DNA of 64,000 nucleotides, from assembly GCA_963730185.1 (NCBI GenBank), contig CAVSQW010000009.1, positions 1 to 64,000 on the forward strand, written 5' to 3'. A model generated the notes under the pieces. The model did not search any database, had not been told where the DNA came from, and worked only from the letters and a program-made list of their open reading frames with translations. Positions 53,810 through 55,692 of the stretch are shown here, piece after piece (positions within the stretch are counted from its first letter, which is position 1; each line of letters begins with the position of its first letter). The stretch is from an uncultured Gemmatimonadales bacterium (GTDB taxonomy: Bacteria; Gemmatimonadota; Gemmatimonadetes; Gemmatimonadales; GWC2-71-9). The translations under genes were made by a program, and so were the position numbers.

Positions 53810-54805
53810 TCAGAGTGGACCGCCGGGGCCCGACTTCTCCTGACCTCCGTCGTACCCGCTGGCGGCCAGGAACCGGTCCGCGTCCCTCATCGTGATGATC
53901 TCGGCGATCGCGGCCCGCTTGTCCTCGGCCCGGTCGTAGTAGGCCTCGGTGATCCGGTAGCCGATGTAGTACCCCAGGTCGGGCGGCCGGTCGACCGACT
54001 GGTCGCCTTGGTACATCCACGCACTCACGTCCCGGCCGTGCATCACCTTCCGGAACTCGTCCCAGAGGGCCGCCTCGTGCGCGTCGCCATACAGGTGCTG
54101 GATCCGGTTGATGATCCCGCCGGAGATCAACTGGCCGAGGAAGTCGGCCGAGCCCTCCCGGAGGGCCTGGTCGAGGAGGGTCAGCGATCCCTTCGCCTCC
54201 GGCTGCTGAAAGTGGATCAGCTCGTGGGCGACGATGCTCGGTAGCACGTCGGACGAGGTGACCACCGCCTTCTCCCACGGGGTCAGCTCGTCGGTCGGGG
54301 TGCCCAGGTCACGGGCGTACATCTCCGCCCCGATGATCAGGCCGACCTCGCCCGCCGTTCCCCCCGAGTTGAGCCGGCCGATCACGAAGTAGACGTTCGG
54401 GAACACCGCCTCGGAGTAGAGATCCGCCAGGCGGTGGAAGCTGGCCCGGATTCGGGCTTTCACGGCCCCCGCGGTGTCGACCGCCAGGGTGGTACCCCGG
54501 ATGGCGGCGTAGTAGCGCGGGCGGGCCGCCACCGTACCCGCCAGGGCCCGGGCGTTGACGATCCGGCCCCGAAGAAACGCCTTGAGCCCCGGCGTCCCCG
54601 GCTCGAGGTAGAGGTGTTGGAAGCGATCGGCCCCGTCCAGCAGGGTGGCGCCGTCGAGCGCCGACCAGAACCGGGGAATGTCCTCGGTTACCAGCCGGGC
54701 GGCATCGGGGTCGTGATTTCGGACCGCCTCCTGGGCAGCCACCGGCCGGCCGAAAAACCCCGCCCCGAGGAGCAGAACGAGCCACCCGGACAACCCGGAG
54801 CTCAC
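53810..54805 (-). CDS. secreted DUF2268-like putative Zn-dependent protease
   Basis: Signal peptide; IVAHELIH, EGSADF and DLGYYIGYRI. Confidence 0.75.
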   Translation of the reverse strand: MSSGLSGWLVLLLGAGFFGRPVAAQEAVRNHDPDAARLVTEDIPRFWSALDGATLLDGADRFQHLYLEPGTPGLKAFLRGRIVNARALAGTVAARPRYYAAIRGTTLAVDTAGAVKARIRASFHRLADLYSEAVFPNVYFVIGRLNSGGTAGEVGLIIGAEMYARDLGTPTDELTPWEKAVVTSSDVLPSIVAHELIHFQQPEAKGSLTLLDQALREGSADFLGQLISGGIINRIQHLYGDAHEAALWDEFRKVMHGRDVSAWMYQGDQSVDRPPDLGYYIGYRITEAYYDRAEDKRAAIAEIITMRDADRFLAASGYDGGQEKSGPGGPL

Positions 54806-55146
54806 GACCGCAGCTCGAGCAGCCGCTCCGGCGGCCGCCCCACGACGGCCCGGTCGCCCAGGACGCCGATCGGCCGGGCCAGGAGGGTCGGATGCTTGGC
54901 GATCAGGGGTACGAGCGCCGAGTCGCTCTCGGTGCCGGTCAGGCCCAGCGCCTGGTAGGCGGCATCGTTCTTCCGGAGGAGCGTCCGCGCCGGCACGCCG
55001 AGTAGCCCGACCAGGCGCTTCAGCTCGGCCGCCGACAGCGGCTCCTTCCGGTAGTCCCGGTAGCGATACCCCACCGAGTGTTGGTTCAGCAAGGCGACCG
55101 CCTTGCGGCAGGTGCTTCAGGTCCGGGTGCAGATCAACTCGATCAT
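54802..55146 (-). CDS. ArsC/Spx family thioredoxin-fold protein; candidate selenoprotein (UxxC)
   Basis: AGGAGG RBS, then ATG 55146: MIELICTRT-[TGA 55119-55117]-STCRKAVALL...RDYRKEPLSAAEL...HPTLLARPI...AVVGRPPE, in frame with ORF 54802..55092. Confidence 0.8.
55089..55106 (-). promoter_or_regulatory. bacterial SECIS-like hairpin
   Basis: GCAAGGC-GGUC-GCCUUGC starts 10 nt downstream of the in-frame UGA. Confidence 0.6.
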
Positions 55147-55329
55147 GCCGACGCCTCCTGGTGCGAAACGGGACCATGATGAATTCTAGCCTTGGGCGGA
55201 CCGGTCGTCACGATCCCGGGGGGCGGGCTTGCTCCTTTCCCAGCCCGGGATAGCATTGTCAATCGTTCGGGCGGGCCGGTCCAGCCGGCGACGCCCGGTG
55301 CCCGTTTCGACCCGCCTCCCCGGTGCGTC

Positions 55330-55692
55330 ATGTCCTACCTCCTCAACGCGGTTCCGGTGCTCGCCGTGGACGACCTCGATCAGGCCATCGCGTTCTATCA
55401 GCACCGGCTTGGCTTCGACCTGGTTTGGACCTGGGGCGAGCCGGCCACCGTCGCGGCCGTCGTTCGGGACGACGTGGAGGTGAACCTGGCCCGCCGGGGC
55501 GTCAACGGCTCGCGCGGCGCCTCGAGCGTCTACCTCCGGCTCACGGACGTCGACGAGTTCTACGCCGAGTGCGAGCGGCGGGGTGCCAGCCCGGCGGGGC
55601 CGCCCGAAGACCAGCCCTACGGCATGCGGGAGTTCTCCCTGATCGACTCGAGCGGGAACAAGCTGAGCTTCGGGGAAGCCGTGGTCGAATGA
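55330..55692 (+). CDS. VOC / glyoxalase-bleomycin resistance family protein
   Basis: PVLAVDDLDQAIAFYQHRLGF...DQPYGMREF...D..GN.L.FG. Confidence 0.9.
   Translation: MSYLLNAVPVLAVDDLDQAIAFYQHRLGFDLVWTWGEPATVAAVVRDDVEVNLARRGVNGSRGASSVYLRLTDVDEFYAECERRGASPAGPPEDQPYGMREFSLIDSSGNKLSFGEAVVE

What the first reader, a model, noticed from the sequence alone, without database searches (positions are those of the whole stretch)
54802..55160. Hidden selenoprotein candidate: ArsC/Spx-family gene with UxxC and a SECIS-like hairpin
Seen: the ORF track truncates this gene. An AGGAGG-preceded ATG at 55146 reads in frame through one TGA (55119-55117), giving MIELICTRT-U-STCRKA. A perfect 7-bp hairpin with a GGUC loop begins 10 nt after the UGA. 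Known: ArsC/Spx proteins have an N-terminal CxxC or CxxS, so the TGA falls exactly on the first Cys. Bacterial SECIS elements lie just 3' of the UGA with a G-U in the apical loop, as in E. coli fdhF. Inference: this is a Sec-containing redox protein, and the organism encodes Sec machinery.
Basis: partly seen in the sequence, partly recalled or inferred. Interest (0 to 1): 0.8.

Follow-up and report, generated by a model that had tools for sequence, protein, structure and literature searches.

The report
Selenocysteine ArsC-fold redox enzyme gene
This small gene has a UGA 'stop' codon exactly where its relatives have their catalytic cysteine, followed by a strongly conserved RNA hairpin, so it very likely makes a selenium-containing redox enzyme; the call looks right, but close relatives were already listed as predicted selenoproteins in 2008.

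Summary
Observation confirmed. A 114-codon ArsC-fold gene (55146-54802, minus strand) has TGA at the catalytic Cys column and a 7-bp GGUC hairpin that meets all four bacterial SECIS criteria. The genome holds selA, selB, selD and tRNA-Sec. Among 94 distinct close relatives, 86 have TGA and 8 have TGC. The intact hairpin is in 83 of 86 versus 2 of 8, and its synonymous sites are frozen. Sec insertion is about 97% likely but untested. The protein resembles E. coli-type ArsC (Arg58/91/104 invariant), not Spx. Its site is Cys6-x3-Sec10-x2-Cys13, with Cys replacing His8 and Ser15. No ars gene was found beside it, so a stand-alone redox enzyme is likelier than a dedicated arsenate reductase. It is not new: two reads of this clade stand under 'Arsenate reductase 2 UxxC' in the 2008 GOS supplement (PMC2398784), and this scan noted it in three other genomes. 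No NCBIfam model covers the clade, so gene callers truncate it. New member of a known kind; interest 0.25.

The parts
54802..55146 (-). Full coding sequence of the ArsC-fold selenoprotein candidate, 114 aa plus TGA stop
   Evidence: Pfam ArsC 55.4 bits over cut-off 24; model pLDDT 91, best folds 3rdw/3f0i TM 0.88-0.89
55154..55159 (-). Shine-Dalgarno-like AGGAGG, 7 nt before the ATG
   Evidence: sequence
55129..55131 (-). Cys6, four residues before Sec, at the position of E. coli ArsC His8
   Evidence: Cys in 93 of 93 clade members that cover it; His at this offset in 63 of 66 distant homologues
55117..55119 (-). In-frame TGA, predicted Sec10, at the catalytic Cys column
55108..55110 (-). Cys13, the second residue of UxxC; predicted resolving Cys
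   Evidence: 94 of 94 clade members
55089..55106 (-). SECIS-type hairpin: 7-bp stem, GGUC loop at 55099-55096; codons 14-19
   Evidence: criteria from PMC13188914 Fig. 2 legend
54973..54975 (-). Arg58 (E. coli ArsC Arg60 equivalent)
   Evidence: 94 of 94; alignment to ArsC structures
54874..54876 (-). Arg91 (Arg94 equivalent), followed by Pro92
   Evidence: 94 of 94
54835..54837 (-). Arg104 (Arg107 equivalent), followed by Pro105
   Evidence: 94 of 94
55183..55211 (-). Sigma-70-like promoter match 37 nt before the ATG (consensus match only)
   Evidence: 1 found, 0.1 expected from shuffles

Best explanation
The gene very likely encodes a 114-residue selenoprotein with the ArsC/thioredoxin fold, predicted to work as a stand-alone redox enzyme rather than as part of an arsenic-resistance operon. 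Shown: the TGA at the catalytic column, the hairpin, their joint conservation, the Sec machinery, and the invariant Arg58/Arg91/Arg104. Inferred from the known pathway: SelB binds the hairpin and delivers Sec-tRNA to the UGA. Inferred mechanism: the Sec10 selenolate would attack an oxidised, anionic substrate held by the three arginines; Cys13 would release it by forming a Sec10-Cys13 selenenylsulfide; Cys6, in the place of His8, would relay or stabilise that bond before a cellular thiol system re-reduces it. Sec's low pKa (general knowledge) would make His8 unnecessary. The substrate is not identified; a housekeeping redox role is the likeliest reading. Sec insertion alone: about 0.97.
For: Recoding: selA 518 bits, selB 346 bits, selD 379 bits with its own in-frame TGA, tRNA-Sec 69 bits, all over cut-off. 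TGA is this genome's main stop (973 of 1,448 long ORFs), so it is not reassigned wholesale. 86 TGA and 8 TGC among 94 distinct clade loci; full stem plus GGUC loop in 83 of 86 versus 2 of 8. In TGA forms the top codon is 98-100% at codons 14-19, against 43-95% at the other conserved columns; Leu19 is TTG in 83 of 85, against 127 of 1,316 other Leu codons. Double changes that keep pairing occur at two stem pairs: L036 and L199, and L187. The 8 Cys forms are scattered on the tree (7 changes by parsimony, at least 2 forced by well-supported branches). Stand-alone role: no ars-family Pfam hit among 143 neighbours from 40 loci; no neighbour cluster shared by more than 10 loci. acr3 is in 10 of 19 carrier genomes, on another contig in all 10; in 2 it lies beside an LMWPc-type gene. 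V. cholerae vc2165 keeps the Cys and arginines, yet the cells made no As(III) (PMC9601151, passages). The His8/Asn9/Ser15 set listed as required for arsenic resistance (PMC5593903, passages) is replaced here.
Against: No protein, RNA or activity data exist here; Sec insertion and every catalytic step are inferred. The arginine triad is the arsenate site in the one well-studied member, and it is invariant here. The window's own genome has an arsR-arsM-phosphoesterase-acr3 cluster with no arsC in it, and no LMWPc gene was found (81.8% complete), which leaves room for this gene to be its arsenate reductase. Co-occurrence with Sec genes is weak evidence because selA is in 318 of 401 genomes of the phylum sample. 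One carrier, G061, showed no selA or selB and only a sub-threshold tRNA-Sec hit, though it has a TGA-bearing selD. Covariation in the stem is thin (36 of 500 shuffles as high). Relatives are kin, so the Fisher p of 3e-6 overstates. 46 of the 143 neighbours had no Pfam hit. Cys6 distances to Sec10 and Cys13 could not be measured.
Confidence: 0.55

Rival explanations
1. It is a true arsenate reductase encoded apart from the ars operon. Sec10 would attack arsenate held by Arg58/91/104, and Cys13 (with Cys6) would replace glutathione and glutaredoxin in releasing arsenite for Acr3 or ArsM.
For: Best family TIGR00014 arsC (79.5 bits). Best folds are ArsC structures, TM 0.88-0.90. Arg60/Arg107/Pro108 and Arg94/Pro95 equivalents are invariant. 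The own genome's ars cluster lacks arsC, no LMWPc gene was found, and the only other ArsC-family gene shows no Cys.
Against: Below the TIGR00014 cut-off of 106. His8/Asn9/Ser15 set absent. No ars neighbour among 143 scanned. acr3 not found in 9 of 19 carriers; 18 of 19 have an LMWPc-family gene, which may be a phosphatase or an ArsC. The vc2165 case shows that the triad does not guarantee activity.
Confidence: 0.28
2. It is a metal or metalloid binder or sensor. Cys6, Sec10 and Cys13 would form a three-ligand site for As(III) or a soft metal, rather than a catalytic redox pair.
For: Three chalcogen residues within eight positions are invariant. As(III) prefers three thiol ligands (general knowledge). 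A 2026 review notes that Sec may be a metal ligand in some small selenoproteins (PMC13188914, passage).
Against: Sec10 and Cys13 sit at the start of helix 1 as in thioredoxin-fold CxxC enzymes. No consistent metal-resistance neighbourhood. Geometry not measured.
Confidence: 0.1
3. It is an Spx-like redox-sensing regulator that binds the RNA polymerase alpha subunit.
For: Shares the N-terminal CxxC pattern and the fold with Spx (TM 0.78-0.80); weak hits to Spx models.
Against: Spx models score 30-54 bits against cut-offs of 75-159. It carries Arg60/Arg107/Pro108, which Spx lacks (PMC5593903). In the alignment to an Spx structure, Pro52 stands where Spx has Gly52 (that residue's role in polymerase binding is recalled). 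It is shorter than Spx.
Confidence: 0.05
4. The TGA is a real stop or an assembly error, and the gene is a pseudogene or starts at the TTG at 55092.
For: Gene callers do start it at residue 19 or 20; several top database hits are such forms.
Against: TGA is kept in 86 distinct loci, with named records from at least three phyla. The nine codons before it are conserved. The short form would lack every redox residue. The hairpin relaxes in the TGC forms.
Confidence: 0.02

Closest known systems
GOS predicted selenoproteins filed under 'Arsenate reductase 2 UxxC' (Zhang and Gladyshev 2008, PMC2398784, supplementary file 3): JCVI_READ_1093018614276 and JCVI_READ_2161197
   Same: Same clade: Cys four residues before U, UxxC, CRKAVALL motif. 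The first read aligns without gaps and matches 69 of 114 residues by my hand count, within the 54-71% range of the clade.
   Different: They are 2 of the 42 sequences in that group. The other entries I saw there are of a different type, so the clade was lumped in by motif and not described separately in what I read.
ArsC family (seleno)protein NF041106 (ArsC_rel_Se_1; 'arsenate reductase-like protein', UxxC)
   Same: ArsC superfamily, UxxC at the N-terminus, predicted Sec (PMC13188914 table row).
   Different: This protein scores 16.5 bits against a cut-off of 85; three Cys forms of the clade score 21-32. It is not this family.
'Arsenate reductase' selenoprotein, UxxS, TIGR00014 ('ArsC 1'; Sargasso Sea 2005, PMC1088965)
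   Same: Same E. coli-type ArsC body with the arginine triad; Sec at the catalytic position.
   Different: Those keep His and Ser around U (entries seen); this clade has Cys at both positions.
E. coli glutaredoxin-coupled ArsC (TIGR00014; PDB 1i9d) and the orphan V. cholerae and Y. pestis homologues (3f0i, 3rdw)
   Same: Fold (TM 0.88-0.90), catalytic position, Arg60/Arg94/Arg107 equivalents.
   Different: Sec for Cys12, Cys for His8 and Ser15, Thr for Asn9; 28-36% identity; no ars operon found around it.
Spx/MgsR regulators (TIGR01617)
   Same: Fold and CxxC spacing.
   Different: Below cut-off; has the ArsC arginine set that Spx lacks.

Membership tests
Bacterial selenoprotein gene | In-frame UGA aligned to a conserved Cys in homologues | tested here: met
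   TGC/TGT in 66 of 66 distant homologues and in 8 of 94 clade members
Bacterial selenoprotein gene | SECIS: 3-9 nt loop on a 4-16 bp stem, G in the first two loop positions, 16-37 nt from UGA, energy at most -7.5 kcal/mol | tested here: met
   4-nt GGUC loop, 7 bp, 17 nt, -12.5 kcal/mol for 26 nt and -11.1 for the bare hairpin; criteria from PMC13188914
Bacterial selenoprotein gene | selA, selB, selC and selD in the genome | tested here: met
   all four over their cut-offs
Bacterial selenoprotein gene | Sec present in the protein | not testable with these tools
   needs 75Se labelling or mass spectrometry
ArsC superfamily (Pfam PF03960) | Score over gathering cut-off and ArsC fold | tested here: met
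   55.4 bits against 24; folds
E. coli-type arsenate reductase (TIGR00014) | Score over curated cut-off 106.05 | tested here: not met
   79.5 bits
E. coli-type arsenate reductase (TIGR00014) | Arg60, Arg94, Arg107, Pro108 | tested here: met
   94 of 94 for each
E. coli-type arsenate reductase (TIGR00014) | His8, Asn9, Ser15 | tested here: not met
   Cys6, Thr7, Cys13 instead
E. coli-type arsenate reductase (TIGR00014) | As(V) to As(III) activity | not testable with these tools
   no assay possible
NF041106 ArsC family (seleno)protein | Score over cut-off 85 | tested here: not met
   16.5 bits
GOS 'Arsenate reductase 2 (UxxC)' list | ArsC-like protein with UxxC; close likeness to listed sequences | tested here: met
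   two listed reads share the clade motif; compared by eye, not by program
Spx/MgsR regulators | Score over cut-off (TIGR01617 75; Spx models 123-159) | tested here: not met
   54 bits and 30-43 bits
Spx/MgsR regulators | Binding to the RNA polymerase alpha C-terminal domain | not tested
   no complex job was run

The most novel reading that the evidence does not exclude
This clade is an unmodelled ArsC subfamily that is mostly Sec-using (86 of 94 loci) and has a three-chalcogen active site, Cys-x3-Sec-x2-Cys, next to an intact arsenate-type arginine triad. It would be a natural selenium-dependent arsenate reductase that resolves its intermediate internally, without glutathione or glutaredoxin, linking selenium supply to arsenic detoxification. 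I found no biochemical study of any natural Sec ArsC in searches.
Probability: 0.12. Interest if true: 0.55.

Novelty: new member of a known kind. Interest (0 to 1): 0.25.

Why it matters
Mainly an annotation fix. Gene callers start these proteins at a TTG inside the SECIS hairpin and lose the whole active site, and no NCBIfam model passes cut-off for the clade. The set of 86 Sec and 8 Cys forms is a clean natural control for SECIS function. A small, well-folded natural Sec/Cys pair would make it easy to test whether any 'arsenate reductase' selenoprotein really reduces arsenate; a 2026 review calls such functions largely uncharacterised (PMC13188914, passage).

Tried and rejected
Genome-wide reassignment of TGA to Trp or Gly: rejected, TGA ends 973 of 1,448 long ORFs and the column is Cys. 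Hairpin stability as evidence by itself: weak. Covariation test on 15 sequences: 36 of 500 shuffles as high, inconclusive alone. Co-occurrence with selA as a statistical test: weak, base rate 318 of 401 (this tally includes one genome flagged unpublished, G204, and no other claim rests on it). Conserved operon: none found. Terminator-like matches at 54781-54758: probably spurious, they lie in the likely signal-peptide codons of the next gene. Expression: no RNA holder listed; only contigs could be laid, and run X1's contig ends about 10 nt past the codon, so it says little. Small-share runs were not used for habitat. ARAGORN gave a second tRNA-SeC call on C6 that the Rfam search did not list; not counted. 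The tree is the quick version on 113 columns; the clade's branch has SH-aLRT 84 only, so single origin and the number of reversions are not established. Rows dropped: L067 and L101 (no alignment over the site), two duplicate loci, one locus too short to show Cys6. Paper search returned nothing. No complex prediction, atlas search or homologous-protein search was run.

Full report
Observation. The sequence matches the finding in every detail: AGGAGG at 55159-55154, ATG at 55146, TGA at codon 10 (55119-55117), a 7-bp stem with a GGUC loop at 55106-55089, and a stop at 54804-54802. The plain ORF list has only a 96-aa form starting at TTG 55092. The hairpin alone is not striking: z -2.2 on 26 nt and about -1.2 on 40-60 nt, and 500 of 107,507 TGA triplets in this 70% GC genome have a similar stem nearby. 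It does meet the four criteria of the bacterial SECIS model (PMC13188914, Fig. 2 legend).

Machinery. The genome (17 contigs, 81.8% complete) has selA, selB, selD and tRNA-Sec, each over its curated cut-off, and selD has its own in-frame TGA. TGA is the main stop codon, 973 of 1,448 long ORFs, so the code is not reassigned. A rough scan returned 24 TGA-plus-hairpin candidates; three besides this gene look by eye like familiar selenoprotein motifs (family names recalled, not scanned).

Relatives. Of 60 related genomes, 3 hold a close homologue, all with TGA. A genome scan returned 80 loci: 12 close ones with TGA (named records from Gemmatimonadota, Myxococcota and Acidobacteriota), 66 distant ones with TGC or TGT, and 2 dropped for lack of alignment at the site. 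A metagenome scan returned the best 80 of 206 loci: 72 TGA and 8 TGC. One of its two patterns could match only Cys forms, so it does not favour TGA. After removing two duplicates, 94 clade loci remain, 86 TGA and 8 TGC. In a phylum sample, 8 of 401 genomes (own included) carry the clade, all with TGA. The host is likely a Gemmatimonadota member (inferred from named close hits).

The hairpin is under selection only where Sec is needed. The full stem plus loop is in 83 of 86 TGA forms and 2 of 8 TGC forms. In TGA forms the top codon at positions 14-19 has a 98-100% share, against 43-95% at other conserved columns. Leu19 is the rare TTG in 83 of 85, against 127 of 1,316 other Leu codons. Paired double changes occur at two stem positions (L036 and L199; L187), though the formal covariation test on 15 sequences is weak. 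The Cys forms are scattered over the tree, which fits repeated Sec-to-Cys change; support is limited. Among 14 carriers from the first set, 12 had selB and 11 selA over cut-off. G061 had neither but has a TGA-bearing selD; its completeness is not given. All 7 other phylum-sample carriers (90-98% complete; two overlap the first set) had both. Since selA is in 318 of 401 genomes of that sample, this is consistent but not strong.

What the protein is. It passes Pfam ArsC but no NCBIfam cut-off: TIGR00014 79.5 of 106, Spx/MgsR 54 of 75, and the ArsC selenoprotein model NF041106 16.5 of 85. The model (pLDDT 91) is closest to ArsC structures from Y. pestis, V. cholerae and E. coli (TM 0.88-0.90), ahead of Spx (0.78-0.80). 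Arg58, Arg91-Pro92 and Arg104-Pro105 are invariant in 94 of 94; they match the Arg60, Arg94 and Arg107 set that marks ArsC and that Spx lacks (PMC5593903, passages; PMC3169414, passages). The His8/Asn9/Ser15 set is replaced by Cys6/Thr7/Cys13. CxxC with this triad is common in Cys homologues (Cys at 13 in 46 of 148 library proteins), so Cys6 is the clade's own mark (3 of 148, all clade members). Several top library hits begin at residue 19 or 20, the same truncation as in the window.

Context. No neighbour cluster is shared by more than 10 loci. I scanned 143 of 154 chosen neighbours from 40 loci, cut to 330 aa: none hit an ars family, 46 hit nothing, and a few were redox genes (MsrB and a disulfide oxidoreductase in L037, an FMN reductase in L034). 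In 19 other carrier genomes acr3 was found in 10, always on another contig, and twice next to an LMWPc-type gene. Against this, the own genome has an arsR-arsM-phosphoesterase-acr3 cluster on C12 with no arsC (arsR and arsM named from recalled motifs), no LMWPc gene was found, and its other ArsC-family gene shows no Cys. V. cholerae vc2165 has the catalytic Cys and arginines, yet the cells produced no As(III) (PMC9601151, passages), so the triad does not prove the activity.

Mechanism. Inferred: SelB reads the hairpin and Sec enters at codon 10 (about 0.97). Sec10 would attack an anionic oxidised substrate held by the arginines, Cys13 would resolve it, and Cys6 would relay or stabilise the selenenylsulfide. 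A stand-alone redox role is likeliest (0.55), then true arsenate reduction (0.28), metal or As(III) binding (0.10), an Spx-like role (0.05), and no recoding (0.02).

What is known. ArsC selenoproteins were predicted in 2005 (UxxS; PMC1088965, passages) and 2008 (UxxS and UxxC; PMC2398784, passages), and appear in reviews (PMC9312934 and PMC13188914, table rows). Supplementary file 3 of the 2008 paper lists two reads of this very clade under 'Arsenate reductase 2 UxxC' (passages only). PMC4150793 (passages) concerns an engineered Sec form of a different ArsC class. Searches showed no biochemical study of a natural Sec ArsC and no separate description of this clade; subscription papers and preprint supplements were not searchable. 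The scan's own notes record the same kind of gene in three other genomes, which I saw after finding the supplement.

Verdict. A real and well-supported mis-annotated selenoprotein gene; a new member of a known kind, in a subclade that lacks a model and any biochemistry. Interest 0.25.

Noticed in passing
L202 (G330:C19:55864-56181, minus): A different ArsC-type gene with in-frame TGA at the same column, of the YEKPT-U-xxC type whose relatives here have Cys; a further UxxC selenoprotein candidate, TIGR00014 99 bits, below cut-off.
   Followed up: partly
G000:C12:29276 (-), C15:645860 (-), C6:249199 (-): Three more TGA-plus-hairpin candidates with CxxU, CxxU and UxxC motifs that look like SelW/Rdx, AhpD-like and peroxiredoxin-like selenoproteins (names recalled, not scanned).
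   Followed up: no
G000:C12:294370-297650 (-): ars cluster arsR, arsM, metallophosphoesterase, acr3, with no arsC.
   Followed up: partly
G000:C7:487341-487655 (+), L192: Second ArsC-family gene with no Cys at the catalytic position.
   Followed up: no
phylum sample: selA is over cut-off in 318 of 401 genomes, so Sec use looks common in this phylum; one genus has it in only 1 of 15.
   Followed up: no
window 53810-54805 (-): Downstream gene for a likely secreted DUF2268/GldB-like protein whose likely GTG start overlaps the stop of the selenoprotein gene; the pairing is not conserved in most relatives.
   Followed up: partly
window 55327-55692 (+): Divergent glyoxalase-family gene upstream; also next to the gene in one close relative.
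   Followed up: no
L037:4375-6200: In one lineage (L037, L038, L175) MsrB and a pyridine nucleotide-disulfide oxidoreductase follow the gene on the same strand, a possible redox operon.
   Followed up: no
P0003, P0025: Library proteins with Trp at the Sec column, probably TGA translated under another table by the gene caller.
   Followed up: no
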